NCBI GenBank assembly: GCA_965215185.1
Contig: OZ244034.1
Span: forward strand, 1,874,244-1,938,243
DNA length: 64,000 nucleotides
Source: Acidimicrobiia bacterium
GTDB taxonomy: Bacteria; Actinomycetota; Acidimicrobiia; Spongiisociales; ZC4RG35
Direction: 5' to 3'
Positions 5,362-47,480 of this stretch are shown piece by piece (within the stretch, counting starts at the first letter, position 1; every line of letters begins with the position of its first letter). A program made the position numbers and the translations under genes. Under the pieces are notes generated by a model. It was not told where the DNA came from, did no database searches, and was given only the letters and a program-made list of their open reading frames with translations.

Positions 5362-5460
5362 TTCGTAATCAACATTTCCTCTATAAGTCTGCCAATCGGA
5401 GCGAACAATTCGTAATCAACATTTCCTCTATAAGTCTGCCAATCGGAGCGAACGATTCGT
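5350..5460. repeat. AT-rich 47-bp tandem direct repeat, 2.4 copies, in the divergent phnX/lutA intergenic region
   Basis: Unit cggagcgaacaattcgtaatcaacatttcctctataagtctgccaat at 5350-5396 and 5397-5443, then a partial copy with 1 mismatch at 5444-5460. Confidence 0.9.
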
Positions 5461-5464
5461 AGTA

Positions 5465-6253
5465 TTGTCCCGTCCCATGTCGGAGACTGTTCAACTATTC
5501 GTCACTTGCGTTATCGACGCCATCTTTCCGCAAGTCGGCCGCGACGTTGTTGAGGAGTTGGAAAGAAATGGTGTAACCGTTGAATTTCCCGAGGACCAGA
5601 CCTGCTGCGGCCAGCCGGCCTACAACGCCGGGCATCTTCGGGAGGCATCCGAGGTGCTGGTCCACAATCTGGAGGTTCTGGACCGCACCGAAGGGCCCAT
5701 AGTGATTCCCTCCGGATCCTGCACCGACTTCATCATGCATCACGGCCCGCGGGTGGCCGCCGATATTCCGGGCAGGGCCGACATTGCCAAGCGGGTGGCG
5801 GCTCGCATCCGCGAGTTCACGTCTTATCTTGTCGAAAAGCGGCGAGAAATCGCCAGCGAGGGGACCGCAGACGAAAGCGGGGACAACGGAGAGCGGCGGC
5901 GGGCCTACTACCACCCTTCCTGCCACGCTCTGCGCGGCCTGGGTCTGCGCCGAGAGGGGGAAATGCTGTTGGAATCGGTGAAGGGGGTGGAACGGGTTGA
6001 ACTCGAGGGTGCCGAGGAATGCTGTGGATTCGGTGGCCTGTTCGCATTGGAGATGCCCGAAATCTCCGCCAAGATCATGAACACCAAGCTGGATCGACTG
6101 GAGAACGGGGAAGTGCAGATGCTGGTGGGCGCCGACGTGGCCTGCCTCATGCACATGGAAGGGGGCCTTCGTCGCCGCAAGAACCCCATGCAGGTGCTGC
6201 ACATCGCCTCGGCGCTGGCCGGTGGCCGGGCCGTTGATGGAGAATACCAATGA
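5465..6253 (+). CDS. lutA: L-lactate utilization protein A (Fe-S oxidoreductase with two CCG domains)
   Basis: Two cysteine-rich CCG motifs (CCG...C, CCGFGG). About 260 aa. Followed by lutB and lutC with overlapping stops and starts. Confidence 0.8.
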   Translation: MSRPMSETVQLFVTCVIDAIFPQVGRDVVEELERNGVTVEFPEDQTCCGQPAYNAGHLREASEVLVHNLEVLDRTEGPIVIPSGSCTDFIMHHGPRVAADIPGRADIAKRVAARIREFTSYLVEKRREIASEGTADESGDNGERRRAYYHPSCHALRGLGLRREGEMLLESVKGVERVELEGAEECCGFGGLFALEMPEISAKIMNTKLDRLENGEVQMLVGADVACLMHMEGGLRRRKNPMQVLHIASALAGGRAVDGEYQ

Positions 6254-8581: not shown

Positions 8582-9986
8582 GGGACTTATATACCTAGGT
8601 TGACAGAGCGTCTAGGTGATACTGTTCTGCGGTGTCTGCCAGCATCTTCCGGCCTGAGCCGAAAGATGTCTTACAACAGAGATTTGTAGAGCGCACCGCG
8701 TCGGGAAACACGAGGTCATGTCCCACCCGACCCCAAGGATCCCAGGTGGGATAGTCTCGGGCGCATATGTTGATTGCAGCATTGTGGTCTCTGCACATGG
8801 TCAGTCCACACTGTTCGCACCGGAAGGTTCTCACGTTGAGGGGCATCTTTTGGTGATGCCCGCATCGGGAACAGTCGGTGGAGGTGTGGCGAGGGTTTAC
8901 CCCCGCATAGTGGACACCAGCTTTCGCGGCTTTGTGTTCCAGTATGAGATCGAAGGATCCCCAGCGTTGCTGTGACATCTGTTTGGAGAACAGCTTGGTT
9001 TTCAGCAGTCCGGCGATATTGAGCTTTTCGACAGCTATGCCGTCGTAGGCCTTGACCAGGCGGTCGGCCAGGCGGAAGTCCGACTGGATGGCCTGTTCCT
9101 GTAGGCGGCGGTGCTGTTTGGCGAGAGTGTTTGCGCTTCTTGATGCGAGACCGTGATCCCTTGACGGACCTGCTGAACCGGCGCTGAGCGCGCAACGCCT
9201 GTCGCAGATCCACGGTTGTGGGTGGTAGGTGTTCGCCGTCGGAAGTGACCAGGCGTGACTTGAGGCCCTTGTCCAAACCGACGGGATTGACAGGATCTGC
9301 CACCGGTGGGCGGTCAGGGTGCTTGATGACCGCGTGTATCTCGACTCGCAGAGGAGTGCGGGCCACTCGCAGTTCCACCAGCCGGCCGCTCTCCAACGCG
9401 GTAGTGAGGCGGTCGTGTTTGTCCTCGAACCGTATCTGCGGCACGCCCTTCACCTGTAGTCTCCACCACTTCTCGCTGTGGTTCTTTCTCTCTCCCGGAG
9501 CTTTGAGCATCGCGCGGTCAGCGTTCACAATCTCTATCGACTTCCACCGGTGACGCGGCTTGAAACGGGGAAACCCGGCCTTCTTGGAAGGGTCCTTACA
9601 TCTCTTATAAAAGGCCTGAATAGACCGGTCGAAGCGGCGCAACGTTCCGCGCCCCACTCGAAGGCTCAAACGCTGCCACTCAGGATGGTCCTTGCGTACA
9701 TCGGTGAACATCCGCAGACGGTCATAGTGAGACTGGTTCAGTTCTAGGGGAAGGGGTTCGTCGGGATGGTGTTCTTTCCACCACCGGTATGTGCCCTTCC
9801 ATGATTCCAGGCATGCGTTATACAACTCGCAACACTGCGCGAAGATGTCATCCAAACGACGGTGCGCCGAGCGGGAACAATGCCCTTTCAGCCGGATCGT
9901 CTGCACCCAAGGAACCATCATCTAAAAATATCCCACCCCTGCGAAAAAAGGGGTGGCTGGTTGTCAACCTAGGTATATAAGTCCCC
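8582..9986 (-). mobile_element. TnpB-only IS200/IS605-like element, copy B (near-intact), bounded by perfect 24-bp terminal inverted repeats
   Basis: 8582-8605 gggacttatatacctaggttgaca is the exact reverse complement of 9963-9986. tnpB stop lies 13 bp from one end and tnpB start 65 bp from the other. No target-site duplication detected. Confidence 0.8.
8595..9921 (-). pseudogene. tnpB: tnpB (OrfB_IS605 RNA-guided nuclease) with a single frameshift near 9115-9140; the only defect seen
   Basis: N-terminal ORF 9921-8716 (RRLDDIFAQCCELYNACLESWKG..., RuvC-I GLDKGL). In another frame, ADRLVKAYDGIAVEKLNIAGLLK gives the RuvC-II Glu. C-terminal ORF 8978-8595 has the zinc ribbon CSRCGH...CEQCG, RuvC-III DRDHNAAINI and a stop. 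Confidence 0.75.
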
Positions 9987-16717: not shown

Positions 16718-17133
16718 GCCTTCTCGCCACCATCTTGGTTGAGGCCATCTCCTCGTGGGTGGATGATCCCGAAAGCGATGTCGAGTACTCCGAAAAGGTG
16801 GATGATCGCTGGGCGGTACGGATGCGACAGAGCGTCCGCTCGGCCACCACCGTCTGGTGGACCGTGGGCGACCGAAGCGTCATCGCCGAAGCGTATGTTC
16901 TCCCGGCCCCGCCCGCCAACCAGGTCAATGTGTACCGGCTGTGCCTGTTGCGCAACCACCGCATGTGGCGATGCCATTTCGCGCTCGACCGGGAGGGAGC
17001 GTTGGTGTTGACCGGCCGGCTGGCTGCCGCCGAGGTGAACCCCCACTCATTGGATCTGCTGTTGGGCGAAATGTACGAGGCCGTGGAACTCAGCTTCCGG
17101 CCGCTGGCGATGATGGCCTTTCGCAAAAACTGA
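16714..17133 (+). CDS. YbjN-like domain protein (Rv0487-like, conserved downstream of mshA)
   Basis: 139 aa. Start overlaps the mshA stop. Position is syntenic with actinobacterial mshA neighbours. Confidence 0.5.
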   Translation: MSLLATILVEAISSWVDDPESDVEYSEKVDDRWAVRMRQSVRSATTVWWTVGDRSVIAEAYVLPAPPANQVNVYRLCLLRNHRMWRCHFALDREGALVLTGRLAAAEVNPHSLDLLLGEMYEAVELSFRPLAMMAFRKN

Positions 17134-17416
17134 CCAAATCTGAGAACCGGGGATAATCCACAATCGCGAAAAGAACCCCCGAAAGGCTTGATTAGACCCA
17201 CCCAGCCGGTCCATCCTGTAAGCGGCCGGGCGGAAACCGGGCGTTTCGTCGAGCGTCACCTATAGGGAAGGCGGGATGACACCTAAAATCGCTCGCCCGC
17301 TCGGCCGCCAACGCCCCGATCGTGATCGTGATCGTGGGAGGCTTCAACAAGGATTGGGAAGTTAGACTTTGACGCATAAGGCTGAAAAGGAGCAACAACA
17401 CATAGACCTTGAAGCC

Positions 17417-18067
17417 ATGCAGCGGGAGATGTACCTGCTCCCCGAAGCAGCCCGCCTGCTTCGCATAAATACCACCACCCTGAAAAGATGGCTGGAAGGA
17501 GACGAGCGGCTCCCGCCCGTGATTCGTCCCCAAGCCACAGGATCCGACGCGGTGACCTGGGGAGAGTTTGTGGAAGCAGGTTTTCTGCGGGAATATCGTA
17601 GGTCCTTGAGCCTCCAGAGGATACGTCCCGCTATTGCGAAACTACGGGAAAAATTTGATGTGCCTTATCCCTTGGCGCATTACAAGCCCTTTATCGGACC
17701 AGGGCGCCATTTGACACTGGAGGCGCAACAGGAGGCACAAGTACCCCCAGATCTGTTCATCGTCTGGGAGATAGCAACAGGACAGTTGGCGCTCGCTGAT
17801 TCAGCCTTGGGCTACATCGAGAAAGTCGACTTTGCTGCAGAAGGCAGGCGTTGGGCAGAGCGTATTCATCCAGCGGGACGGGAATCCCCGGTAGTTATCG
17901 ATCCCGATTACTCGTTCGGAGCGCCAACCATCCGGGGCATCAAGACCTACATCATCACCGAACTCGTGGAAGCGGGTGAATCTCTGGAATTCGTAGCAGA
18001 GGGCTACTCGCTTTCGGTGGCTGAAATAGAAGCCGCGGTCGCTTATGAAGGGAAAGCCGCTGCCTAA
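17417..18067 (+). CDS. DUF433-domain protein with N-terminal HTH (putative antitoxin-like partner)
   Basis: C-terminal DPDYSFGAPTIRGIKTYIITELVEAGESLEFVAEGYSLSVAEIEAAVAY is DUF433-like. An HTH-like stretch (EAARLLRINTTTLKRWL). Low GC. Start could be the TTG at 17369. Confidence 0.55.
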   Translation: MQREMYLLPEAARLLRINTTTLKRWLEGDERLPPVIRPQATGSDAVTWGEFVEAGFLREYRRSLSLQRIRPAIAKLREKFDVPYPLAHYKPFIGPGRHLTLEAQQEAQVPPDLFIVWEIATGQLALADSALGYIEKVDFAAEGRRWAERIHPAGRESPVVIDPDYSFGAPTIRGIKTYIITELVEAGESLEFVAEGYSLSVAEIEAAVAYEGKAAA

Positions 18068-18095
18068 GAGAAAGCCGTCCACGGTCCGCTTCTAT

Positions 18096-18509
18096 ATGGA
18101 TGCTGACGTACTCGGTCTCGCCAAGGTCATTTCCAAAATCCGGCCTGATGTCACGTACCCGGGCGATCCGGGCGGGGAGATCAGAAAGCGGGTACGACCA
18201 CCCTGCCCGATCACCGATACTGAAACCACGGACCTCATATGGATCCCACAAGTCGCCCAGCGAGACTGGACCATCATCACCCGAGACCGGAATATTTCAC
18301 GAAAACCAGCGGAGCGCGATACCGTGATCGCTTACAACGCTAAGCTTTTTGTCTTTATTAAGCCCATCAATAAGAACTTTGATCTGTGGTCTCAACTGGA
18401 AGTCCTGATGACTCGATGGCGCGACATCGAACGACTCGGCGAAGAATCCGGGCCATTTATCTATAACGTCCATCGCACCACCGTCAATAGGGTCTGGCCA
18501 GCGGTTTAG
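18096..18509 (+). CDS. DUF5615 / PIN-like predicted nuclease (putative toxin partner of DUF433)
   Basis: MDADVLGLAKVI... start typical of DUF5615. Immediately downstream of the DUF433 gene. Low GC. Confidence 0.5.
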   Translation: MDADVLGLAKVISKIRPDVTYPGDPGGEIRKRVRPPCPITDTETTDLIWIPQVAQRDWTIITRDRNISRKPAERDTVIAYNAKLFVFIKPINKNFDLWSQLEVLMTRWRDIERLGEESGPFIYNVHRTTVNRVWPAV

Positions 18510-18555
18510 GTTATATCTTCGGGTCTCTATTTCTGTCCGGAGGTGGAATGGGCAG

Positions 18556-18650
18556 TCAGTACTCCTTATCCCTGAATCCCTGGACCTGCTGGTGGGAGAG
18601 ATCTACGAGGAGGTGAAGCTCAGCTTAAGGCCCTGACGATGATGGCCTTC
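18556..18650 (+). pseudogene. diverged remnant of the 3' end of the YbjN-like gene (duplicate of 17040-17133)
   Basis: Translates to LDLLVGEIYEEVKLSLRP* against the intact LDLLLGEMYEAVELSFRPLAMMAFRKN. About 80% nucleotide identity with a 1-bp deletion. Confidence 0.6.
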
Positions 18651-19097
18651 CCCGATTCGCGGATAGAGCGCCCCGAATGAGCTTGAACACCCCGTCCAAC
18701 CGCTGACATCCCGTCATAATCCTTCATCCTCGGCAGAGGCACTTCAACATAAACTCGGAGGCTAAAGGATGACAGGGAGTAACCCCCATGGATGAGGTAA
18801 CCGGTAGCGGGGAGGAGACAGCTGTCACTAAGAACGGTCGCCCGGTTTGGCTGGCGCCTTGCCGCAGAAAACCGGACTCTTTCTTGGGCCGCGACCGGGA
18901 CAATATTGGCATTCTGGGCGACACCATCAAGCCAGTGAATACGGAATGGGAGGCCGAGACCAACCCAGGCAGGGTGCTGAATCCTTGATCTTGCTGAATC
19001 TGGGTAGAGGCGGAGGACAGACCAGGCTTCACCTTTGGGTCGCCCGGGTTCTAGCCTGTGGAGTCTGCGGCCTTTATCCTGTTGATCAGCCAGACCC

Positions 19098-29757: not shown

Positions 29758-29875
29758 GGCCCCGGCATTAAGCCGACCCAAGGGGCATCCCTGATCGCAA
29801 AGCCTCAAACGGCCCCTCTTTCACATTAAGCTCTGGCGAATGGTCTCTGCTAGACGGTCCTTTCGTGCCCGGCGC

Positions 29876-31186
29876 ATGGGACGCGCATCGCACGGCAGAC
29901 TGCTGATCGCCTTGGCGCTATTCGGACTGCTGACCGCTTCCTGTAGCGGGTCCGCGCCAACCGAGCACCTCGGTGACGGCTCCCTGGGATTCGTGGAGGT
30001 GGAGCGGGGTGAGACCATCCAAATTCGATCCGTATACACCAATCCCGGAGATATCGCCCTGTTGGGCAACTCCGCGGAGAAGGCGATCGTGTTCGCCGTG
30101 GAGGACTACGGCCCCATCCGCGGGTACGATGTTGACCTCGGCGTGGGACTCGATGACATGTGTTCCCCCGAAGGAGGAATGATTACCGGCTCACTGGTCA
30201 TCGCCGAGGGGAACGTGCTGGGCGTGATCGGCACCAACTGTTCGGCGGCGGCCGCCGAGGCGGCGCCGCTCATCACCAGTGCGGGCATGGTCTTGATCTC
30301 CCCATCCAACACCGCCCCGTCACTCACTTCGGATCTGGCCGGCAACGAGGGCAGCAGTCACTTCCCCGGCTACTACCGAACCGCCCACAACGATCTGATT
30401 CAAGGCGAATCCGTGGCGCATTTCCTGTTCGGAGAGGGTGTCTCTACCGCGGCCGTCGTTCACGACGGCGGCCCCTATACGATGGGGTTGGCTTCGGCCT
30501 TCTCCAACGCATTCGAGGAACACGGCGGCGCCATCACCGGTACTTGGGAAGTGGACCGCAGAGAGCAGGATCTGGTCCCGGTTCTCACCGAGATAGCCGC
30601 CGGTGAGCCAGAAGCCCTGTTCTTCCCGCTTTTCTTCCCGACCGGCGGTTTCTTGGTGAAGCAGGCAGCTGAGATGCCTGCCTTTTCGGAGACGGTGTTC
30701 GCCGCCGCCGACGGTCTGCTCAACGATGATTTTCTATCGGTGCCCGAAACCGAGGGCATGTTTATCTCCGGTCCCGATACCCGTTTCGGAGACAACTACA
30801 ACCAAAGCACCGGACAGAGCGCCGCCGACCTGCTGGCACGCTATCAGGAGACGGTGGGCTCGGCTCCCACCGGCACATTCTGGGGCCACGCCTACGACGC
30901 CACCACCCTGCTCTTGGACGCCATTAACGCCTCCTCTTACCTGCGCTCCGGAGGCAACACCCTGGTGATAGATCGGGCCGGACTACGCCAATACCTCGAC
31001 AACCTGTCCGGCTTCCAAGGAGTGACCGGGATTCTCAGCTGCGACCAATTCGGAGACTGCGGCACCTCCCGGGTGGTGATCCACGAACACCTGGATTCCA
31101 CCAATATCGAAGCCACCAGGCAGAGCGTGGTCTTCGAAGTCGGACCCGACGGTCAACAGACACCGGCTTCGCTCACCGGACACTAA
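29876..31186 (+). CDS. ABC transporter substrate-binding lipoprotein, PBP type I (branched-chain amino acid-binding family)
   Basis: Lipobox LLTASC. LivK-like periplasmic-binding fold. The upstream part of the ORF (from 29840) is likely non-coding. Confidence 0.7.
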   Translation: MGRASHGRLLIALALFGLLTASCSGSAPTEHLGDGSLGFVEVERGETIQIRSVYTNPGDIALLGNSAEKAIVFAVEDYGPIRGYDVDLGVGLDDMCSPEGGMITGSLVIAEGNVLGVIGTNCSAAAAEAAPLITSAGMVLISPSNTAPSLTSDLAGNEGSSHFPGYYRTAHNDLIQGESVAHFLFGEGVSTAAVVHDGGPYTMGLASAFSNAFEEHGGAITGTWEVDRREQDLVPVLTEIAAGEPEALFFPLFFPTGGFLVKQAAEMPAFSETVFAAADGLLNDDFLSVPETEGMFISGPDTRFGDNYNQSTGQSAADLLARYQETVGSAPTGTFWGHAYDATTLLLDAINASSYLRSGGNTLVIDRAGLRQYLDNLSGFQGVTGILSCDQFGDCGTSRVVIHEHLDSTNIEATRQSVVFEVGPDGQQTPASLTGH

Positions 31187-31293
31187 ATCGGACCACCGCA
31201 CGCTGCACGGGAGGAGACAACTGGCGGCCTTCGCCAAGGTATCTCCATCTCGGCAAACCCTTACCTCAAGACGAGCCAACCCCTGAGGATGGT

Positions 31294-31364
31294 CTTGAGG
31301 TAGGCCTACCTCTCGCCCTCAAGTAGGCCTACCCTTCGTCCTCAAATAGGTCTACCCCTCGTCC
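31294..31364. repeat. three tandem about 23-bp repeats, each carrying palindrome GTAGGCCTAC and the flotillin stop-codon context
   Basis: cttgaggtaggcctacctctcgccc, tcaagtaggcctacccttcgtcc, tcaaataggtctacccctcgtcc. The third unit overlaps the actual flotillin stop. Sits between convergent genes. Confidence 0.8.
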
Positions 31365-32650
31365 TCCGGCGAGTCTTGGGAACTGCGGCGTAGCGAGTCG
31401 AGGATGTCGACGCCGGTAACAGCGTCTATCTGTTCGGTTAGGGCCACCAAAGCAGCGGGGAGTTGGGCAACCAGGCCGGGGATCCCTCCTCCACCGCTGC
31501 CCCGGTCGCTGTTGGTGTCCACCACGGCCACCCGGTCGATGTTGACCCCCTGCACGGTGGCGACGATCTTGTCTATGAGTTCGGGAAGCATGTTCAACAC
31601 CAGCACGTGATGCCCGTCCTGGCCCGCCGCCTGGTATTGGTCGGTCAGGAGTTTGAACACTTCCACTTGGGCTCTACCGTCTTCAATGATGCTCGCCGCT
31701 TCGGCCCGGGCTCGTAGCTGTTGGGCTTCCAAGTCGGCTCGGGCGGGAACCACCACCGCCGCCTCCACGCGTCGTGTCTCCAGCTCGATGCGCTGGCCTT
31801 CCAACTCCTGACTGGCCACGACTCTGGCGACATCTCCCGCCACCAGAGCTTCCGCCTCACGTGCGTTAGAGACGGCCTCCAGTTCGGCGGTACGTACCCG
31901 CAGGCCGTTGTTTTCCACCACGATCGCCCTGTCCGCCTCAAGGCCAGCGACCTGTCCCACTTGCCGGGAGGCAGCCTCGGCCTGTTCCGCTTCGGCTTTG
32001 CGTTCTGCTTCCACCACCCGGGCATTTCGAATCACCTCGGCGGTGAGAAGGCGCCCCACCGATGTCAGATAATGGACATCGTCGGTGACGTTCTGGATCT
32101 TGAGGACATCCAGTTCCAGGCCCAAGGTCTTGATGTCGTCGTCGGCCTCGTCGATCAACTGATGGGAGAATTTGAGCCGATCTTCGTTCACCTCTTCCGG
32201 CGACAGGGTGGCTAGGACGCCCCTCAGGTTGGCTTCCAGGGTCTCCTTGGCGATCTGACCGATCTGGGCGCTGGAACGCCCCAGGAATCTCTCGGCAGCG
32301 TTCTCCAGCAGCCCTTCTCGGCTCGAAACCTTGACGTTGGCAATGCCCGCCACATTGAGAGGAATAGTCCCCCGCGAATAGGCGTTGGTCACCGCAACCT
32401 CCAACGGAATGGTGTTCAGACTCATCCACTGAACATTCTCGATGAGGGGAATCCGGATCGTCCGTCCTCCCTGCAGCAGGCGGTATCCCACCTTTCGCCC
32501 ATCACTCAGCGCCCGTTTCCGTCCGGAAATGACCGCTACCCGGTTGGGTGGGCAAATAATTATCAACGACTTAATGATGAAGATCAGGATCAACAACACC
32601 ACGGCCAGGCCGACACCGGCTAACACCGGTAAACTTAAGTTATCACTCAT
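31352..32650 (-). CDS. flotillin-like SPFH/band-7 domain protein
   Basis: N-terminal TM, SPFH domain, extended Ala/Glu-rich coiled-coil. 432 aa. Confidence 0.8.
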   Translation of the reverse strand: MSDNLSLPVLAGVGLAVVLLILIFIIKSLIIICPPNRVAVISGRKRALSDGRKVGYRLLQGGRTIRIPLIENVQWMSLNTIPLEVAVTNAYSRGTIPLNVAGIANVKVSSREGLLENAAERFLGRSSAQIGQIAKETLEANLRGVLATLSPEEVNEDRLKFSHQLIDEADDDIKTLGLELDVLKIQNVTDDVHYLTSVGRLLTAEVIRNARVVEAERKAEAEQAEAASRQVGQVAGLEADRAIVVENNGLRVRTAELEAVSNAREAEALVAGDVARVVASQELEGQRIELETRRVEAAVVVPARADLEAQQLRARAEAASIIEDGRAQVEVFKLLTDQYQAAGQDGHHVLVLNMLPELIDKIVATVQGVNIDRVAVVDTNSDRGSGGGGIPGLVAQLPAALVALTEQIDAVTGVDILDSLRRSSQDSPEDEG

Positions 32651-33153
32651 TAACTACTTCCTCTTTCTTTTTCTTGCCTTGCGACGAGAGCCACCGCGCC
32701 GTCCACCTCCACGATGGTGACCCTCTCGCCTTTCTTAATCAGATCCTCCCGGTTGGCGGGTGAGGCGCTGATCCTATGGCGCGCCCCGGCCGCGTCGACA
32801 ACTACCTGCCCCCTGTGTTCGGTGGACACTCCCAACACCACTACGGCTGTTGACCCCTCAAGATCTGCATTGGTAACCTCGCTGGACGCTTCGGTGCGGC
32901 GCAGCCAACCAAACAGAGCGTTGTGGAAAGATGCTCCCAGAACACCCACTCCGGCGGCGATCAATCCCCCGGAAAGAGCGGAAAGGCTCACCCAGACCGT
33001 GATAAGACCCGCTAAACCAAAAAACGCCGCTCCAAAAGAGACAGCGCTGAACGAGATCCATGAAAAGAAACCTCCACCCGAACCGGTATCAGAATCCCCC
33101 CCCAATTCGCCTCCGAAGGCAAAAATCAGCAACAACGGCAAACCGACCGCCAT
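32650..33153 (-). CDS. NfeD-like membrane protein (flotillin-associated, OB-fold C-terminus)
   Basis: Two TMs plus a beta-rich C-terminal domain. Overlaps the flotillin start, the typical NfeD-flotillin operon arrangement. Confidence 0.65.
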   Translation of the reverse strand: MAVGLPLLLIFAFGGELGGDSDTGSGGGFFSWISFSAVSFGAAFFGLAGLITVWVSLSALSGGLIAAGVGVLGASFHNALFGWLRRTEASSEVTNADLEGSTAVVVLGVSTEHRGQVVVDAAGARHRISASPANREDLIKKGERVTIVEVDGAVALVARQEKERGSS

Positions 33154-33240
33154 CGCGAAAATATATAAGAAAAGTACGGCCGCTCCCTACCTAGCTTCAG
33201 CCTTAACCCAGACTAGTCGTCCACCCGTGGTTAGGTCTAA

Positions 33241-33340
33241 TAGACGGGCGAATCGTTTGCCGGCGATGACCAGGGCCATCAGCGTCACCACCAACGGGGC
33301 GTCTATGAAAACCACGGGGAAGCCGTCGCACTGGCAGCAA
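33241..33340 (-). pseudogene. diverged remnant of the 3' end of the ABC permease gene (duplicate of 34396-34500)
   Basis: Reverse-strand translation QCDGFPVVFIDAPLVVTLMALVIAGKRFARLLDLTTGG against the intact gene QGNGLPVQITDALPFVVTLLALVVARKRFARLLDLSTAG*. Same frame, substitutions mostly conservative. Confidence 0.6.
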
Positions 33341-33360
33341 CACCCGGCACTCGGCTAGGG

Positions 33361-34197
33361 CTAAAAGACCGGCTTACCGCGATCCTCCAAACAACGCGCA
33401 CCATCGTCGTTGGTGTCCAACGCCACATCCCGTGCCACGTCTACAATGAACGCTTCCTGGCGTGTGACGTCCTCCAGTGCGAACTTGGTCATCACCGCTA
33501 TGGCATAGGGTCGGTTCCTCAGAAACACAATTCCAGCATCGCAGCGGACCCGTTCCATGCCGCCCGATTTGTTCGCAACTACCAAGTCGGACGGTACCGC
33601 CCGATTCAACGGCGCCGATTTGGGCTTGCCGATGATACGCAGGACCTGCTCCGCCACTTTGGATGACGGCTTACCTTGATACAGCATCTCCAGCATCGTG
33701 ACAAGTTCGTTCGGCGTCGAAACATTCTCGTCACCCCTGTGTATAGCCTCGCTGTCCATCATCTTGCGCCGCAACTTTGTGGCTGTCAGCCCCATATCAC
33801 CCAACAACCTGTTGGTTGCCTCCATGCCGGCCCAATCTATGCACATGTTCGTTGCAGTGTTGTCCGACACAACGATCATCAGGATGGCGATATCCAGCAC
33901 TGACAACTCGGGCTCACCCTCCATATAGTGGATTACGCCACTACCTGTTCCGCACATCTGCGGCTTGATTCTGACGCGCTCATTGAGGTCAATCTCACCC
34001 CTCTCGCCACGGCTCAATAGCTGTGTCAAGATGTGTATTTTGATAGTGGATGCGGTGGGGAACTCCTCGCTACCACGTACGGACACTGCGTCTCCACGTT
34101 TCAGATCCAGCACCGAAATACCCGCTACTCCCGCGAACTTCTCAATCTTGTGAGTTAACCGTTCCTCCAAACGCTCCCAAAGCCTCCTGTTGCTCAT
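33361..34197 (-). CDS. class A beta-lactamase-related serine hydrolase, no signal peptide, low GC
   Basis: STIK (SxxK), SDN and KSG motifs. 278 aa. GC about 48-52% against about 67% flanks. Confidence 0.7.
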   Translation of the reverse strand: MSNRRLWERLEERLTHKIEKFAGVAGISVLDLKRGDAVSVRGSEEFPTASTIKIHILTQLLSRGERGEIDLNERVRIKPQMCGTGSGVIHYMEGEPELSVLDIAILMIVVSDNTATNMCIDWAGMEATNRLLGDMGLTATKLRRKMMDSEAIHRGDENVSTPNELVTMLEMLYQGKPSSKVAEQVLRIIGKPKSAPLNRAVPSDLVVANKSGGMERVRCDAGIVFLRNRPYAIAVMTKFALEDVTRQEAFIVDVARDVALDTNDDGARCLEDRGKPVF

Positions 34198-34395
34198 TCC
34201 ACTGCTCCTTAGGTTCTCAACTCGGTGAAGTATCCCATTTGAAATCCTCTGTATTCACGTTGCGCATGTTAAGACTTTCAGAATTACGAACCTCGACAGA
34301 ATCGGGGTCAGCGTATTGTTCACTCGCACCTAAGCCAAACCCCCCGTTTCTCCCCGCCTTGCGATGAGGCAGACGCCGACCAAACCGCAACCTAA

Positions 34396-35313
34396 TCAAC
34401 CGGCGGTAGACAGGTCGAGCAGGCGGGCGAATCGCTTGCGGGCGACCACCAGAGCCAGCAGGGTCACCACGAAGGGAAGGGCGTCGGTTATTTGCACCGG
34501 CAGACCGTTGCCCTGGAAGCGGAAACCAAGCGCCTCGGCCAGAGCGAACAGGGCGCAGGCGCCAACCACACCCGCGGGATGGGCCCGGCCCAGCATCACC
34601 GCCACCACCGCTACCCAACCCCGGCCGCTCGACATGTTCTCCGCGAACTGCACCACGTTGCCCAATGAGAGTTGAGCCCCGGCCATCCCGGCCAGGGCGC
34701 CGGACGCCAGAACCGCTCCGTACTTGTAGACGGTGGGACTCACCCCGAGAGTCTCCGCAGCCAAGGGCCGCTCACCCACCCCCCGGAGACGCAAGCCGAT
34801 CGGAGTGCGGAAAAAGAAAACCCACAGCGCTGGCACCAGCAACAAAGCGAGAAAGGTGAGAACCGTGTTGTCAAAGAGCACCGGCCCGACCCAGGGGATC
34901 TGCGACAGTCCTGGAATGGCGATCCTGTCCAATCTATCTATCCGGGGATGCTGGAATACCCCGCGAACGTCGAAGATTTGCGGAAGCAGGAAACCGGTAA
35001 GACCCATGGCTAGCAGGTTGAGCGAGATTCCCAATACGATCGGATCACCCCGACGAGTAACCGTGCCATAGGCCAACGCCAGGGAGACCGCCATCCCGGC
35101 CAGTATCCCGAAGGCTATCCCCACGGTGGAACTCAGAGCCAGATAGGAGCCGGCCACCGCCGCGAAGGCGCCAGCCAGCATTATCCCCTCCAAGGCGATC
35201 TGAAAAACCCCGGCCCGCTCGCAGATCATGCCACCCAGCGCCGCCAACAGGATGGGAACCATCGCCCGGGTGGCCGAGTCGAACAAGGCTGTGTCGAAAA
35301 GCTGCTCGAACAT
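34396..35313 (-). CDS. ABC transporter permease (BMP/nucleoside family)
   Basis: 305 aa, 8-10 TM, branched-chain/sugar-type permease fold. In an operon with a second permease, an ATPase and a Bmp lipoprotein. Confidence 0.8.
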   Translation of the reverse strand: MFEQLFDTALFDSATRAMVPILLAALGGMICERAGVFQIALEGIMLAGAFAAVAGSYLALSSTVGIAFGILAGMAVSLALAYGTVTRRGDPIVLGISLNLLAMGLTGFLLPQIFDVRGVFQHPRIDRLDRIAIPGLSQIPWVGPVLFDNTVLTFLALLLVPALWVFFFRTPIGLRLRGVGERPLAAETLGVSPTVYKYGAVLASGALAGMAGAQLSLGNVVQFAENMSSGRGWVAVVAVMLGRAHPAGVVGACALFALAEALGFRFQGNGLPVQITDALPFVVTLLALVVARKRFARLLDLSTAG

Positions 35314-43410: not shown

Positions 43411-45378
43411 ATGGAAGACCTTTGGAACGACGATGTAGCCCCAAGCCCTTCCGATCCCCTCGCCGAGTGCGTTTACGGATCGCGGCTGCTGGGGTCCGAT
43501 CCGTCCCTGGTGCTGCATGGTGGGGGCAATTCCTCGGTGAAAGCACCATTTCGGGATATCACCGGCGGCCAGGTGGAGGCCTTATGGGTGAAGGGTTCGG
43601 GATGGGATATGGCCAGCATCAAGGCGGCAGGTTTCACTCCCCTACCGCGGCATCGTCTTCACCAACTGCTGGAGCTGGAAAGCCTTTCCGACCGGGACAT
43701 GATGCGGGAACTGTCGGCGGCGCGCCTGGACCCCGCCTCCCCCCAACCGTCGGTGGAGTGCCTACTCCACGCCCTCATTCCCCACCGAGCGGTCTTCCAC
43801 AGCCACGCCGATGTGATCGTCACTCTCACCAACCTCTCCGACGGCGCCGACCGGGTGCGAGAGGTGTTTGGAGACGAGATGATGATCGTGCCCTATGTGA
43901 TGCCCGGTTTTGACCTGGCCGGGACAGTGCGGGACATGTGGCCCGACGGTGGCGATGATTCAACCGGCATGGTGCTGATGAATCACGGTTTGTTCACCTA
44001 CGGCGCCACCGCCAGACAGGCCTACCGACGTCATATGGCGCTCATCCAACGGGCGGCCCGGTGGCTGGACACTCATGCTCCCCACGCAGGTGCGGGCGAG
44101 CAACCATTGGACAGGGTGGACTCCTTGGAGTTGGCCCGGGTGCGAGCTGACATCTCCCGAGCGGCGGGGCGACCAATGATCTCGGTTCGTTATGCCACCG
44201 GGGAGGTGGCGCGCTTTGTGAGCCGCCGCGACCTGGCCTCCCTGGCCACCCGGGGACCACTCACCCCCGATCACATCATCCGGACCAAGCGCACCCCGAT
44301 GGTGGGCCGTAATGTGGCCGACTACGCCGAGGAGTACCGCCGCTACTACCGGCGCAACCGGGAACGCGCCCGAGGAGAGACCACCATGCTGGATCCGGCT
44401 CCCCGGGTGGTGTTGGATCCCGAACTGGGCATGCTGGCCATTGGCGCCACCGCGTCGGCGGCGCACATAGCTTCAGATATCTATTACCACACCATGACTG
44501 CCCTGATCCGGGCCGAGGATCACCTGGGAGGGTACGAGGCCCTGCCGGAAGGAGACCTGTTCGAAGTGGAGTACTGGGAGCTGGAGCAGGCCAAGCTGCG
44601 GCGCCAAGGCTCACCCCCCGAGATGACCGGAATGGCGGCGCTGGTAACGGGAGCGGGATCGGGCATCGGAAGGGCGTGTGCAGAAGAACTGTTGAGACGG
44701 GGAGCGGCGGTGACCGGCCTGGATATCTCTGCGGGAGTGGTCGACGCCTTCGACTCTCCATCCTGGTTGGGCATCACCTGCGATGTGACCGACCCGGCCG
44801 CCCAGGCAGCAGCGTTGGAACGATCCGTGGAACGCTTTGGGGGAATTGACATTGTGGTGGTCTGCGCCGGGATATTCGTGGGGTCCGCCCCGATTGCCGA
44901 ACTGGACCGCTCCGCCTGGCGGCAGTCCATGGCAGTCAATGTGGATGCAGCAGCGGACCTGCTCACCGGAGTCCATCCTCTCCTTCGCCTGTCTCCGGCC
45001 GGTGGCCGGGTGGTGGTGGTCTCCACCAGGAATGTGGCGGCGCCGGGTCCGGGCGCGGCTGCCTACTCCTCTTCCAAGGCAGCTCTCACCCAGTTGGCGA
45101 GGGTGGCCGCCTTGGAGTGGGCCTCGGATGGAATCAGGGTCAACATCGTCAATCCCGACGCCGTGTTCGATACGGGCATTTGGAACGAAGAACTGTTGGC
45201 TGCCCGTGCCGCGCAGTACAACATGGATGTGGATTCTTACAAACGACGGAACCTGTTGGGTACCGCGGTCACTTCCCGGCAGGTGGCGGCCGTGGTGGCC
45301 GAGTTGGTGAGCGACCGGTTCGCCGCCACCACCGGCGCGCAAATACCCATAGACGGTGGAAATGAAAGGGTGGTGTGA
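43411..45378 (+). CDS. bifunctional class II aldolase/adducin-domain - SDR fusion (rhamnulose-1-phosphate aldolase/alcohol dehydrogenase-like)
   Basis: N-terminal class II aldolase domain (HSHAD). C-terminal SDR (VTGAGSGIG, YSSSK). Start at MEDLWND. Confidence 0.75.
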   Translation: MEDLWNDDVAPSPSDPLAECVYGSRLLGSDPSLVLHGGGNSSVKAPFRDITGGQVEALWVKGSGWDMASIKAAGFTPLPRHRLHQLLELESLSDRDMMRELSAARLDPASPQPSVECLLHALIPHRAVFHSHADVIVTLTNLSDGADRVREVFGDEMMIVPYVMPGFDLAGTVRDMWPDGGDDSTGMVLMNHGLFTYGATARQAYRRHMALIQRAARWLDTHAPHAGAGEQPLDRVDSLELARVRADISRAAGRPMISVRYATGEVARFVSRRDLASLATRGPLTPDHIIRTKRTPMVGRNVADYAEEYRRYYRRNRERARGETTMLDPAPRVVLDPELGMLAIGATASAAHIASDIYYHTMTALIRAEDHLGGYEALPEGDLFEVEYWELEQAKLRRQGSPPEMTGMAALVTGAGSGIGRACAEELLRRGAAVTGLDISAGVVDAFDSPSWLGITCDVTDPAAQAAALERSVERFGGIDIVVVCAGIFVGSAPIAELDRSAWRQSMAVNVDAAADLLTGVHPLLRLSPAGGRVVVVSTRNVAAPGPGAAAYSSSKAALTQLARVAALEWASDGIRVNIVNPDAVFDTGIWNEELLAARAAQYNMDVDSYKRRNLLGTAVTSRQVAAVVAELVSDRFAATTGAQIPIDGGNERVV

Positions 45379-45380
45379 GG

Positions 45381-46112
45381 ATGTTTCTTCCCCTGTTGAA
45401 CATTGCTGCTAAGGAAATCCCTGAACGAGTAATGGTGGTCGGTGACCCCGATCGCGCCCGCCGGGCGTCCGCCTATCTTGACGATTCTGTCGAGGTGGGA
45501 AACAACCGGGAGTACGTAACCCTGGTTGGCCGTCATCGGGGAGTCAAAGTGGGGGTGGTGTCCCACGGAGTGGGATCGGCGGGAGCGGCGGTGTGCTTCG
45601 ACGAGCTTCTCAGGGCAGGGGCGCAGCGTTTAATCCGGGCGGGGAGCTGTGGGGGTATGCAGGACAACGTCATCGACGGCCATCTGGTGATAGTCACCGG
45701 GGCAGTACGCAACGAGGGTTTCACCTCCCAGATTGTGCCGGATGGATATCCGGCATTGGCCTCTGCGGATGTGATCGCCGCCCTGCGCCGGGCCTCGCGA
45801 GGCGCGGCTGACATCCACGAGGGCTTGACCCTGACCAGCGCCGTGTTCTACTCACATGACATTCTGGGTTCCGACTTGACCCTTTGGCAGAAGACCGGAG
45901 TGAGGGCGGTCGAGATGGAATGTGCGGTGCTGTTTGTGCTGGCCGGACTGGCAGGAAGGGAAAGCGGGGCCATTTTGGCGGTGGACGGGAACCCCCTGGC
46001 GGAACGGGATGAAGAGTTGGCCGGCTACAACCCCCATCGGGAGGTGGTCAGAGAGGCGGTGGGCCGAATGATTGAAATAACGCTGGACGCCTTGGTTGAC
46101 GATCATTGTTGA
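45381..46112 (+). CDS. purine/uridine nucleoside phosphorylase family protein (PNP_UDP_1)
   Basis: About 244 aa. GVGSAGAAV and EMECAVLF motifs. May use the GTG at 45375. Confidence 0.7.
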   Translation: MFLPLLNIAAKEIPERVMVVGDPDRARRASAYLDDSVEVGNNREYVTLVGRHRGVKVGVVSHGVGSAGAAVCFDELLRAGAQRLIRAGSCGGMQDNVIDGHLVIVTGAVRNEGFTSQIVPDGYPALASADVIAALRRASRGAADIHEGLTLTSAVFYSHDILGSDLTLWQKTGVRAVEMECAVLFVLAGLAGRESGAILAVDGNPLAERDEELAGYNPHREVVREAVGRMIEITLDALVDDHC

Positions 46113-46228
46113 GTCTCGATAGAAGGCGACGGTTCACTGGTTGCGGAGCTCCTCGGAGACCGCTTCCGGGCAACCGTCGGCGCTCAAGTACCCATTGACA
46201 GAGGAAAACGAAAGGGTGGTATGAGAGA
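46113..46228 (+). pseudogene. remnant of the 3' end of the aldolase/SDR gene, carried along in a tandem segmental duplication
   Basis: Translates LVAELLGDRFRATVGAQVPIDRGKRKGG, corresponding to VVAELVSDRFAATTGAQIPIDGGNERVV* at 45290-45378. Confidence 0.6.
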
Positions 46229-46960
46229 ATGCATCTTCCTGTTTTGAACGTTGCAGCCGCGGACATCCCCGAACGGATGCTGGTGGTGGGCGATCCCGAC
46301 CGCGCTGTGCGGGTGGCCGCCCGATTCGACGACGGGGTCGAGATCGGCCGTTTTCGGGAGTACGTCACCTTGGTAGGCCGGCATCGGGGAGTCAAGGTGG
46401 GAGTGGTCTCCCATGGGGTCGGCTCGTCGGGTGCGGCGGTGGCTTTTGATGAACTGTTCCGAGCCGGAGTCAAGCGTGTGATACGGGCGGGTACCTGTGG
46501 CGGAATGCAGAAACATGTCCTTGACGGCCACCTGGTGATAGTGACCGGAGCGGTCCGCTGTGACGGTCTCACCCCCCAGTTGGTGCCCGATGGTTACCCC
46601 GCCTTGGCCTCACCCGACGTGGTCTTCGCTCTCCGTCGGGCGGCGCAGGGCGGCGAGAACATCCATGAGGGCATCACCCTCACCAACGCCATTTTCTACG
46701 CCCAGGAGATCCTCGGCTCCAATCTGTCCCTCTGGCATGAAGCGGGTGTGAAAGCGATCGAGATGGAATGCGCGGCGCTGTTCGTGATGGCCGGCCTGGC
46801 GGGGAGGGAAGCCGGCGCCATTATCACCGTAGACGGCAACGCTTTTGTGGATGGGGACTTTGCAATGACCGAGTACAACCCCCATCGAGACCTCGTGGAC
46901 CAAGCGGTGGGCCGGATGATCGGAATCGCTCTCGACGCCCTGGTCGACGATCACTCTTAA
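46229..46960 (+). CDS. nucleoside phosphorylase family protein, tandem paralogue (about 70% aa identity to 45381-46112)
   Basis: 243 aa. Collinear with the upstream paralogue. Confidence 0.7.
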   Translation: MHLPVLNVAAADIPERMLVVGDPDRAVRVAARFDDGVEIGRFREYVTLVGRHRGVKVGVVSHGVGSSGAAVAFDELFRAGVKRVIRAGTCGGMQKHVLDGHLVIVTGAVRCDGLTPQLVPDGYPALASPDVVFALRRAAQGGENIHEGITLTNAIFYAQEILGSNLSLWHEAGVKAIEMECAALFVMAGLAGREAGAIITVDGNAFVDGDFAMTEYNPHRDLVDQAVGRMIGIALDALVDDHS

Positions 46961-47480
46961 GCCGCGAGGCGCCCTTGGCCGAAGCCAGCCCAACAATCCT
47001 GACCGGACGGGGCGCAGGGGAACCGGTTTGTGTTCAAACGTGGCGTCTTCGAATCAAGAAGTCTGCAAAACCGACCTCACTGTTTCACCAAAAAGTCGCG
47101 ATTTCTCTAGCTAACCTGTGACAATCACGGTAGCCCTTGGGGCCCCTCCCCCGCCGCCACCATGCCATGAGTTGCAGAAGCCCCGGCCAGGCTTGAAAGG
47201 GTTGTTGGCAGAACCAGAGCCAAGGCGCGCCTTGTGGGACGATTTGATCCCCCGACGAGGTTCGAACGACGCCGGAACGAACCGTCTTGGTGTTTGGCTT
47301 ATGTCAATATGAATACTTCCTGGGACCAAGTCAACCGCTGAACCGCGCTTTTTCTTGACAGCCTCGTGACGCGACGCAAAAGGCGGCGTCGGCGCAACAC
47401 CGCCTCTGAACAGTTTTGGGGATAAGCACACCGCCTCAAGTCGCTTTGAACCAACCTTGGCAACGGCGCCCGCCGACCTC

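What the first reader, a model, noticed from the sequence alone, without database searches (positions are those of the whole stretch)
33241..34395. Second low-GC islet: cytoplasmic class A beta-lactamase-like hydrolase inserted at the 3' end of an ABC permease gene, with a diverged 3'-end remnant
The same architecture as the TA islet. The permease gene ends at 34396. The next about 1.15 kb (about 50% GC) encodes a 278-aa serine hydrolase with SxxK/SDN/KSG motifs but no signal peptide. At 33241-33340 a diverged, in-frame copy of the permease C-terminus (…KRFARLLDLTTGG) sits in the promoter region of the NfeD-flotillin operon. Two independent islets of this design within 20 kb suggest a recurrent gene-3'-end-targeting acquisition mechanism in this lineage.
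Basis: partly seen in the sequence, partly recalled or inferred. Interest (0 to 1): 0.6.

Follow-up and report, generated by a model that had tools for sequence, protein, structure and literature searches.

The report
Recombination scar beside a resident hydrolase gene
The dead copy of the permease gene's tail is real, but it is a scar of recombination between related bacteria with different gene orders at a variable locus, and the beta-lactamase-like gene is an old resident, not a newly inserted island.

Summary
A 278-aa cytoplasmic hydrolase with a class A beta-lactamase fold (33361-34197, minus strand) lies between the ABC permease gene and a decayed direct copy of that gene's last ~50 codons (33213-33364). 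The segment has the lowest GC in the window: 54-55%, not 50%.

- The same layout occurs in at least 10 related sponge-associated Acidimicrobiia loci.
- The hydrolase gene co-diverges with the transporter operon. It sits at this locus in three different gene orders.
- The stub travels with the downstream nfeD-flotillin genes. Stub, nfeD and the flotillin 5' part have a different ancestry from the flanks, with a crossover inside the flotillin gene at about 32120-32165.
- Stub divergence is concentrated at third codon positions, so the stub came from a working permease allele of another lineage.
- Relatives hold further stubs: an SBP 3' end, an nfeD 5' end, and a 96%-identical 55-nt permease repeat around a defence gene.
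- No integrase was seen.

The best explanation is one-sided homologous plus illegitimate recombination, or insertion with long target duplication, at a hotspot. The toxin-antitoxin (TA) islet has the same architecture. The hydrolase family lacks Glu166, so it resembles PBP-A rather than a true beta-lactamase. This is ordinary genome plasticity, well documented here.

The parts
34396..35313 (-). Second permease gene (perm2) of a BMP-type ABC transporter operon. Its last ~150 nt (34396-34548) form the intact copy of the direct repeat.
   Evidence: Pfam BPD_transp_2 at E = 8.5e-38. Orthologues at 89-93% identity occur in related Acidimicrobiia.
34198..34395 (-). Spacer between permease and hydrolase (51% GC). 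Its ends are homologous to the spacer of relatives with the permease-hydrolase order. It carries a lineage-specific insertion of about 110 nt.
   Evidence: Alignment. GC value.
33361..34197 (-). Cytoplasmic serine hydrolase of 278 aa with a class A beta-lactamase / PBP-A fold. Glu166 is replaced by Met. In this genome the native C-terminus has been lost through small deletions.
   Evidence: Vertical inheritance is shown.
33213..33364 (-). Dead stub of the last ~50 codons of a permease gene. The stop codon has mutated from TGA to CGA. It lies directly upstream of nfeD.
   Evidence: Third-codon-position bias of the differences is shown. Counterparts in relatives are shown.
32650..33153 (-). nfeD gene, part of the block that shares the stub's ancestry. 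It is closest to L008 and L035, not to the sister lineage L003-5.
31352..32650 (-). Flotillin (SPFH/Band 7) gene with a recombination breakpoint at about 32120-32165. The 5' part groups with L008/L035 and the 3' part with L003-5.
   Evidence: sliding identity. (informative sites 46:148 versus 83:35, Fisher p = 4e-16).
29840..31186 (+). Convergent solute-binding-protein (SBP) gene that forms the conserved right flank of the variable locus. A 204-nt copy of its 3' end abuts the permease stub in relative L005.
17051..18990 (+). The other islet. In order: YbjN 3' end (17051-17120), a DUF433/PIN_10 gene pair (17369-18509), a YbjN stub (18581-18649), and a relic of an older Phd antitoxin gene (18787-18990).
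45313..46967 (+). Plain tandem duplication of a PNP_UDP_1 gene. The unit is about 848 nt at 73.5% identity. It carries a stub of the upstream gene's C-terminus at 46134-46214. This shows how such stubs can arise without any mobile element.

Best explanation
The segment is one corner of a recombination-prone variable locus. The locus lies between a conserved ABC transporter operon and a conserved SBP/cytochrome cluster in sponge-associated Acidimicrobiia.

The hydrolase gene is a long-standing, vertically inherited neighbour of the permease gene. It was probably retained from an ancestral order of permease, nfeD, flotillin, hydrolase, SBP, or from a derivative that had lost nfeD-flotillin.

The stub at 33213-33364 is the left end of a block made of the stub, its spacer, nfeD and the flotillin 5' part. 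I infer that this block came from a related lineage in which nfeD directly followed a working permease gene. It was recombined in by homologous exchange on the right, with the crossover inside flotillin at about 32120-32165, and by an illegitimate join on the left, downstream of the hydrolase gene. This is homology-facilitated illegitimate recombination. Its outcome is what has been described as 'insertion with long target duplication'. Small deletions then eroded the junction.

The same process recurs at this hotspot and at the YbjN site, because conserved core genes provide the homology anchor for whatever cargo lies next to them in the donor.

Shown:
- the repeats and their counterparts in relatives;
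- the alternative gene orders;
- the extra stubs;
- the co-divergence of the hydrolase with the operon;
- the breakpoint in flotillin;
- the coding-type divergence of the stub.

Inferred:
- the direction of the event;
- the donor;
- the enzymatic route.

The hydrolase itself most likely acylates like a PBP-A-type peptidase or esterase on a cytoplasmic or imported small substrate. It probably does not turn over beta-lactams efficiently, because the deacylating Glu166 is absent.
For: 1. Alternative gene orders exist among 16 close loci. Seven match the window's order (plus three more); seven have permease then hydrolase with no stub (two of them behind an R-M pair); L001 and L002 have permease, nfeD, flotillin, hydrolase. 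Restriction-modification, PD-Lambda-5-like, MazF and IS1 genes occupy the same site in others.
2. The hydrolase protein tree matches the operon tree. Nucleotide identity between the window and L003-5 is 0.85-0.94, which is species level.
3. The block from nfeD through the flotillin 5' part is closest to L008/L035 (0.82-0.93). The rest of flotillin is closest to L003-5 (0.90-0.95). Informative sites are 46:148 on the left and 83:35 on the right, p = 4e-16.
4. Of 20 differences between stub and gene, 14 lie at third codon positions and 1 at second positions. pN/pS is 0.23.
5. The window stub versus the L004 stub gives pS 0.60 and pN/pS 0.18, whereas the intact genes differ by pS 0.18. The L004 and L005 stubs differ neutrally, with 2 synonymous and 6 non-synonymous changes.
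6. L005 keeps a 204-nt SBP 3' fragment joined to the permease stub. Its repeat of about 187 nt runs into the first 16 codons of nfeD.
7. L002 has an independent repeat of 55 nt at 96% identity around a PD-Lambda-5_A-like gene.
8. No recombinase was found among the inspected ORFs or the called genes.
9. Published precedents exist. Long target duplications of 30-420 bp without mobility genes, some overlapping gene 3' ends, are described in PMC2853133. Homology-facilitated illegitimate recombination that displaces older cargo with 3' gene stubs is described in PMC5361080.
Against: - No donor was identified. The best match of the stub to any sampled permease 3' end is only 59 of 73 nt.
- It is unclear which lineage is the recombinant for the nfeD block, the window lineage or L003-5.
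- The codon-position and pN/pS tests rest on 23-26 codons. Against a model of tandem duplication plus neutral decay, I estimate the significance at only about p = 0.02.
- The apparently orthologous stub of L035 is far more decayed than the window's, which no model explains well.
- The extra drop in GC3 of the hydrolase and nfeD genes in clade A is unexplained.
- Junction microhomologies were not examined.
Confidence: 0.6

Rival explanations
1. Intragenomic tandem duplication followed by reciprocal loss. A segment running from inside the permease 3' end to inside the SBP 3' end of an ancestor with the order permease, nfeD, flotillin, hydrolase, SBP duplicated in tandem. nfeD-flotillin was then deleted from copy 1 and the hydrolase from copy 2. 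The SBP'|permease' junction remained as the scar.
For: - The head-to-tail junction of an SBP 3' fragment and a permease 3' fragment in L005 is exactly what a tandem duplication creates.
- The nfeD 5' stub between permease and hydrolase fits a deletion within copy 1.
- A plain tandem duplication carrying a stub of the upstream gene exists in this same window at 45313-46967.
Against: - It needs three events.
- The stub differs from the intact copy mainly at third codon positions (14 of 20), and pN/pS is about 0.2.
- The stubs of the window and L004 lineages differ by pS 0.60 under coding-type constraint. That is not expected for copies decaying in place.
- The nfeD block has a different ancestry from its flanks.
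- No hydrolase relic was seen in the flotillin-SBP spacer.
Confidence: 0.2
2. The hydrolase gene is the cargo of an element that integrates site-specifically into the 3' end of the permease gene and brings a replacement 3' end. The TA islet arose by the same machinery.
For: - Direct repeats made of gene 3' ends bracket small low-GC cargo at two sites in this window and at a third in L002.
- The segment is the lowest-GC stretch of the window.
- In relatives the sites are hotspots with defence-type cargo.
Against: - No integrase or recombinase was found in any locus.
- Repeat boundaries differ between events at the same site: 55 nt, about 82 nt extended by spacer and nfeD codons, and about 150 nt.
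- There is no identical core.
- A 5'-end stub and an SBP stub also occur.
- The hydrolase is inherited vertically and is present without any stub in clade B.
- Its GC3 is native-like in L035.
- The stub shares ancestry with nfeD, not with the hydrolase.
Confidence: 0.1
3. The stub is retained because it has a function, for example as a promoter or leader region for nfeD-flotillin, or as a small membrane-peptide ORF derived from the permease's last transmembrane helix.
For: - It is unusually well preserved in the window lineage, with 20 of 26 residues identical and an open frame of 52 codons.
- It lies directly upstream of nfeD in every genome with this gene order.
Against: - The stubs of L004 and L005 evolve neutrally relative to each other.
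- The L035 stub is almost erased.
- No consensus promoter lies on the relevant strand.
- By my inspection of the sequence, there is no convincing start codon or ribosome-binding site.
- No Rfam family matches.
Confidence: 0.05

Closest known systems
Insertion with long target duplication (Nobusato et al. 2000; Furuta et al. 2010, PMC2853133)
   Same: - Direct repeats of tens to hundreds of bp, derived from the target, bracket a small gene set.
- No transposase or integrase is present.
- Some repeats overlap the 3' end of the upstream gene.
- The cargo can have deviant GC.
- The hotspot in relatives holds restriction-modification genes.
   Different: - In the window the bracketed gene is a resident hydrolase, not an R-M system.
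- The repeat copies are old (71-74% identical).
- They appear to come from different alleles rather than from a duplication of one target.
Homology-facilitated illegitimate recombination and sequential displacement of cargo (de Vries & Wackernagel 2002; Prudhomme et al. 2002; V. cholerae T6SS effector-immunity arrays, PMC5361080; Rhs C-terminal displacement)
   Same: - A conserved gene serves as a one-sided homology anchor.
- New DNA is added next to it.
- Older cargo is pushed along together with a stub of the anchor gene's 3' end. The TA islet shows this directly, with its YbjN stub plus Phd relic.
   Different: - The anchor genes here are ordinary housekeeping-type genes without variable C-terminal toxin domains.
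- At the permease locus the crossover detected is on the far side, inside flotillin.
- The process has not been shown experimentally in Acidimicrobiia, and their competence is unknown.
PBP-A of Thermosynechococcus elongatus (Tll2115, PDB 2J7V) and class A beta-lactamases
   Same: - Tll2115 is the best solved relative, at E = 1e-24.
- The SxxK, SDN and KxG motifs are present.
- The omega-loop glutamate that activates the deacylating water is absent, as in PBP-A (PMC11189452).
   Different: - There is no signal peptide, so the protein is cytoplasmic.
- The family is found next to transporters (ABC here; MFS/EamA in SAR202), not next to cell-wall genes.
- The substrate is unknown.
- This genome's copy has a damaged C-terminus.
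Integrase-borne genomic islands at tRNA or protein-gene 3' ends, including tycheposon-like islands with repeated partial target genes
   Same: Partial copies of the target's 3' end mark the borders of the cargo, and such events recur at the same site.
   Different: There is no recombinase gene, no constant att core and no fixed repeat boundary. Stubs of other gene parts are also present.

Membership tests
Class A beta-lactamase | Active-site motifs S70-x-x-K73, S130-D-N and K234-(S/T)-G | tested here: met
   An alignment with TEM-1 and seven family members shows all three motifs conserved. The TEM-1 sequence came from my memory; its motif positions checked out at 70, 130, 166 and 234.
Class A beta-lactamase | Glu166 general base in the omega loop, with Asn170, for deacylation | tested here: not met
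   Position 166 is Met in the window protein and in all seven homologues. Position 170 is S, R, A or P. The role of the glutamate is described in PMC11189452.
Class A beta-lactamase | Curated family score (NCBIfam bla_class_A cut-off of 200 bits) | tested here: not met
   The score is 121.5 bits against a cut-off of 200. Only the broad Pfam PF13354 model is passed, at 196 bits.
Class A beta-lactamase | Secretion signal (periplasmic or extracellular enzyme) | tested here: not met
   Residue 10 of the protein aligns to residue 5 of mature enzymes, so there is no room for a signal peptide. The same N-terminus occurs across the family.
PBP-A-like DD-peptidases | Closest solved relatives; class A fold without the catalytic glutamate | tested here: met
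   Tll2115 (2J7V, 2J9O) is the top PDB hit at E = 1e-24. The engineered L158E position of that protein aligns with the Met-Met stretch here.
PBP-A-like DD-peptidases | DD-peptidase activity on muropeptides and periplasmic location | not testable with these tools
   Activity cannot be computed. The lack of a signal peptide argues against a periplasmic role.
Integrase-mediated island at a gene 3' end | Tyrosine or serine recombinase gene within or next to the island | tested here: not met
   None was found among ORFs of at least 90-150 aa, or among called genes, in the window locus and 20 related loci. The only mobility gene was an IS1 transposase in L013. Not every ORF was scanned with an HMM.
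Integrase-mediated island at a gene 3' end | Constant att core and boundaries in independent events at the same site | tested here: not met
   Repeat extents are 55 nt (L002), 114-187 nt running into nfeD (L004, L005), and about 150 nt (window).
Integrase-mediated island at a gene 3' end | Cargo foreign to the lineage in phylogeny and composition | tested here: not met
   The hydrolase tree and identity follow the operon. GC3 is native-like in L035 and other relatives. The low GC3 in clade A remains unexplained.
Insertion with long target duplication | Direct repeats longer than 30 bp that bracket the insert, with no mobility genes | tested here: met
   The criteria are those of PMC2853133.
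Insertion with long target duplication | A relative with an uninterrupted target that aligns to both repeat copies | tested here: inconclusive
   In L001 the permease gene is followed by nfeD-flotillin, but with a 344-nt spacer and only 0.22-0.69 identity across the junction.
Homology-facilitated illegitimate recombination | Homologous crossover on one side, visible as a change of ancestry | tested here: met
   The breakpoint lies at about 32120-32165 in flotillin, with p between 1e-13 and 1e-18 in four triplet comparisons.
Homology-facilitated illegitimate recombination | Illegitimate join with microhomology on the other side; identified donor | not tested
   The junctions have been eroded by later deletions. 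No sampled donor matches the stub closely.

The most novel reading that the evidence does not exclude
Sponge-associated Acidimicrobiia might possess a recombinase-independent or trans-acting mechanism that repeatedly captures accessory and defence genes at the 3' ends of core genes and leaves gene-tail stubs. The permease, YbjN and L002 events would then be three products of one dedicated process, rather than of generic recombination.
Probability: 0.07. Interest if true: 0.6.

Novelty: new member of a known kind. Interest (0 to 1): 0.3.

Why it matters
The case shows how a low-GC gene bracketed by a gene-tail repeat can look like an integrated island when it is in fact a resident gene beside a recombination scar. 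Stubs of this kind record exchange between related symbiont lineages at core-gene-flanked hotspots that elsewhere hold defence systems. They can be used to reconstruct gene-order change and gene flow in uncultured sponge symbionts. The hydrolase belongs to a widespread and uncharacterised family of cytoplasmic, Glu166-less proteins with the class A fold. This family should not be annotated as a resistance beta-lactamase.

Tried and rejected
- An exact-sequence look-up of the window's hydrolase found nothing. Close relatives were reached through homologues instead.
- An Rfam scan of the whole window gave no match.
- The promoter/terminator scan of 32900-34600 found nothing meaningful upstream of nfeD.
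- The inverted-repeat search found only 14-nt chance pairs and no transposon-like ends.
- I tried to identify the donor of the stub, or of the SBP fragment, by similarity. All lineages were about equally distant: 52-59 of 73 nt for the stub and 75-85% for the fragment.
- I looked for a hydrolase relic in the flotillin-SBP spacer, as the tandem-duplication model predicts. None was recognisable.
- I tested whether the window's YbjN gene is foreign. It is not; identity to L070 matches or exceeds that of the neighbouring genes.
- The 82-nt repeat at 2592-2673 and 9308-9389 lies inside two paralogous genes and is not a stub.
- Two analysis slips were corrected or set aside. Misregistered L004/L005 stubs were fixed. 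The L063-L065 rows are off by one base and were ignored.
Full report
**What is in the window.** On the minus strand the order is as follows:
- two ABC permease genes (36407-35313 and 35313-34396);
- a 198-nt spacer;
- a 278-aa ORF (34197-33361);
- about 200 nt of non-coding DNA;
- nfeD (33153-32650);
- a flotillin-type SPFH gene (32650-31352);
- a convergent solute-binding-protein (SBP) gene on the plus strand (29840-31186).

Pfam assigns BPD_transp_2 to both permeases. It assigns Beta-lactamase2 to the 278-aa protein (E = 5e-58), and NfeD and Band_7 to the next two genes.

**The repeat is real.**
- An 85-nt ungapped direct repeat at 74% identity links 33213-33297 with the permease 3' end at 34392-34476.
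- With gaps it extends to 33364 versus 34548, which is 138 columns at 71% identity.
- The stub translates to ...QCDGFPVVFIDAPLVVTLMALVIAGKRFARLLDLTTGG. The gene's end reads ...QGNGLPVQITDALPFVVTLLALVVARKRFARLLDLSTAG*. tblastn gives E = 2.7e-10 to 1.8e-11.
- The former stop codon now reads CGA.

**Composition.** The window mean is 61.8% with SD 3.0. This is the lowest 0.1% of equal-sized windows, but it is not 50%.

**The protein.**
- It has S70-x-x-K, S130-D-N and K234-S-G. Position 166, the omega-loop glutamate that deacylates class A enzymes, is Met in this protein and in all seven homologues examined. Asn170 is not conserved.
- It scores 121.5 bits against the NCBIfam class A cut-off of 200.
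- Its best solved relative is PBP-A (Tll2115, 2J7V; E = 1e-24). PBP-A is a DD-peptidase that differs from beta-lactamases precisely by lacking that glutamate (PMC11189452).
- Residue 10 aligns with residue 5 of mature enzymes, so there is no signal peptide.
- More than 2000 homologues share this architecture in Acidimicrobiia, Dehalococcoidia and SAR202. In SAR202 and Dehalococcoidia the gene lies among MFS and EamA transporters and an alpha/beta hydrolase.
- I therefore read it as a cytoplasmic serine hydrolase with a PBP-A-like fold and an unknown small substrate, not as a resistance beta-lactamase.
- The window's own copy has lost its native C-terminus. It carries a 15-nt in-frame deletion and a complex indel that removes the native stop, relative to 97-99% identical relatives.

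**Comparative genomics.** A scan with the permease protein returned 62 loci, mostly sponge-associated Acidimicrobiia. Among the 16 closest loci, the content between the permease gene and the SBP/cytochrome cluster varies.

| Gene order after the permease | Loci |
|---|---|
| hydrolase, stub, nfeD, flotillin (as in the window) | L003, L004, L005, L035, and the nearest relatives L063, L064, L065 |
| hydrolase, with no stub | L006, L007, L011, L012, L013 |
| nfeD, flotillin, hydrolase | L001 |
| methylase and NotI-like endonuclease, then hydrolase or nfeD | L008, L010, L014 |
| PD-Lambda-5-like genes | L002, L034 |

MazF (L007), IS1 (L013) and SLH/fn3 proteins also occur at the site. I found no integrase. 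So the site is a hotspot flanked by core genes, and the window's layout is shared by several species-level lineages.

**The hydrolase is resident.**
- An NJ tree of ATPase plus both permeases puts the window with L063 and L064, sister to L003-5. I call this group clade A. L035 and L002 come next, and the loci with the permease-hydrolase order form a separate clade.
- The hydrolase protein tree has the same major groups.
- Nucleotide identity between the window and L003-5 is 0.85-0.94 across the gene, the same level as in the operon.
- The permease-hydrolase spacer is homologous across both gene orders.
- Low GC3 (0.67-0.71) is a property of the hydrolase in all of clade A. It is 0.83-0.91 in L035, L001 and the other clade. 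nfeD shows the same extra drop. This difference remains unexplained, but it is not evidence of recent foreign origin.

**The stub belongs with nfeD.**
- Sliding-window identity shows that nfeD and the first ~480-530 nt of flotillin in the window are closest to L008 and L035 (0.82-0.93) and distant from the sister lineage L003-5 (0.55-0.84).
- The rest of flotillin is closest to L003-5 (0.90-0.95).
- Informative sites switch from 46:148 to 83:35 at about 32119-32165. Fisher p ranges from 1e-13 to 1e-18 in four triplet comparisons.
- nfeD trees are correspondingly incongruent with the operon tree.

**The stub diverged as coding sequence.**

| Comparison | Result |
|---|---|
| window stub vs window gene, 26 codons | 20 differences, split 5 / 1 / 14 over codon positions 1, 2, 3 (p = 0.0009 against uniform; p = 0.008 weighted for GC) |
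| window stub vs window gene, 23 codons | 12 synonymous, 6 non-synonymous; pN/pS 0.23 |
| window stub vs L004 stub | pS 0.60, pN/pS 0.18 |
| window vs L004, intact genes | pS 0.18 |
| L004 stub vs L005 stub | 2 synonymous, 6 non-synonymous (neutral pattern) |

So the stubs of the two sister lineages descend from different working permease alleles. They are not one pseudogene decaying in place.

**Further scars.**
- In L005 a 204-nt fragment of the SBP gene's 3' end is joined head-to-tail to the permease stub. L003 and L004 keep about 15 nt of it.
- The L005 repeat of about 187 nt runs through the spacer into the first 16 codons of nfeD: LTVGLPLLLVFAFGGG versus LAVGLPLLLVFAFGGE.
- L002 has an independent, recent repeat (55 nt, 96% identical) of its own permease end. 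It brackets a PD-Lambda-5_A-like gene.
- In the window, the TA islet is built the same way: YbjN 3' end, then DUF433/PIN_10, then a YbjN stub.
  - The stub is followed by the relic of a Phd antitoxin gene, collinear with the YbjN-Phd-PIN arrangement of a related species.
  - Another species has DUF1697 at this site.
- A plain tandem duplication of a PNP_UDP_1 gene at 45313-46967 carries a stub of the upstream gene.

**Interpretation.**
- The data fit recombination between related lineages that carry different gene orders at a hotspot. One end recombines homologously, seen here as the crossover in flotillin. The other joins illegitimately, so a tail of the donor's permease gene is carried in next to nfeD. 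Deletions then erode the junction.
- This is homology-facilitated illegitimate recombination, as proposed for the displacement of T6SS and Rhs cargo with 3' stubs (PMC5361080). Its footprint is the 'insertion with long target duplication' catalogued for restriction-modification genes (PMC2853133).
- A purely intragenomic tandem duplication with reciprocal loss explains the SBP'|permease' junction. It fits the coding-type divergence and the mosaic ancestry less well.
- A site-specific, 3'-end-targeting element is disfavoured for four reasons. No recombinase was found. Repeat edges vary. Stubs of other gene parts occur. The hydrolase is inherited vertically.

**Limits.**
- The donor is unsampled.
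- The direction of the exchange is not settled.
- The selection tests rest on few codons.
- Not every ORF in the related loci was scanned with an HMM.

**Verdict.** Its central claim is reversed: the hydrolase is not the insert, and there is no evidence of targeted integration. This is a well-resolved example of a known kind of genome plasticity, and I rate its interest as modest.

Noticed in passing
window 33361-33430 (minus strand): The window's hydrolase gene has lost its native 3' end relative to relatives L063 (99% identical) and L064 (97%). It has a 15-nt in-frame deletion and a complex indel of about 43 nt that removes the native stop. The last ~15 residues are therefore read from former intergenic DNA. 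This may be early decay or an assembly artefact.
   Followed up: partly
window 45313-46967 (plus strand): There is a tandem duplication of a PNP_UDP_1 phosphorylase gene (45375-46112 and 46229-46960; unit about 848 nt, 73.5% identity). A stub of the upstream aldolase/SDR fusion gene's C-terminus lies between the copies at 46134-46214.
   Followed up: partly
window 18787-18990 (plus strand): A relic of a Phd/YefM antitoxin gene lies behind the YbjN stub. It is 76% identical to the intact gene of a related species (L070 5654-5860), and its PIN partner is gone. This is an older TA system displaced by the DUF433/PIN_10 pair.
   Followed up: partly
window 32120-32165 (inside the flotillin gene): There is a sharp change of phylogenetic affinity. 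Upstream of this point the sequence is closest to L008/L035. Downstream it is closest to L003-5. This is a recombination breakpoint within a conserved gene.
   Followed up: yes
window 5322-5462: Three tandem copies of a 47-nt unit (77-81% identical) lie in the divergent spacer between a PhnX-like HAD hydrolase gene (4480-5361, minus) and a LutA-like gene (5465-6253, plus). The first copy overlaps the start of the HAD gene. These could be duplicated operator or promoter DNA.
   Followed up: no
window 34215-34330 (minus strand): An insertion of about 110 nt, 51% GC, lies in the permease-hydrolase spacer. It is present only in the window lineage (window, L063, L064) and absent from L003-5, L035 and the other clade. 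It has no Rfam match, and its content is unknown.
   Followed up: no
window 31187-31351: The flotillin-SBP spacer holds a thrice-repeated GGTAG(A/G)CCTA motif that includes a perfect hairpin, GAGGTAGGCCTACCTC. It may be a bidirectional terminator for the convergent genes.
   Followed up: no
L002 6864-10305; L034 7053-10062; L004 10019-11895; L008 7015-8879; L014 6990-8878: In relatives the same site carries PD-Lambda-5-like genes (a ParB-like protein plus a methylase) and a D12-class methylase with a NotI-like endonuclease. The R-M pair occupies different positions within the locus. In L002 the permease stub separates the PD-Lambda-5_A-like gene from the methylase.
   Followed up: partly
window 33361-34197 and 32650-33153; L003-5, L063, L064: The hydrolase and nfeD genes have GC3 values 0.10-0.18 lower than their neighbours in every clade A genome. 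They do not in L035, L001 or the other clade, although the hydrolase phylogeny is vertical. The cause is unknown.
   Followed up: partly
L076-L081 (SAR202 / Dehalococcoidia loci): Distant homologues of the hydrolase (54-57% identical) sit in a conserved cluster with three MFS transporters, an EamA transporter and an alpha/beta hydrolase. This suggests that the family is coupled to transport in general.
   Followed up: no
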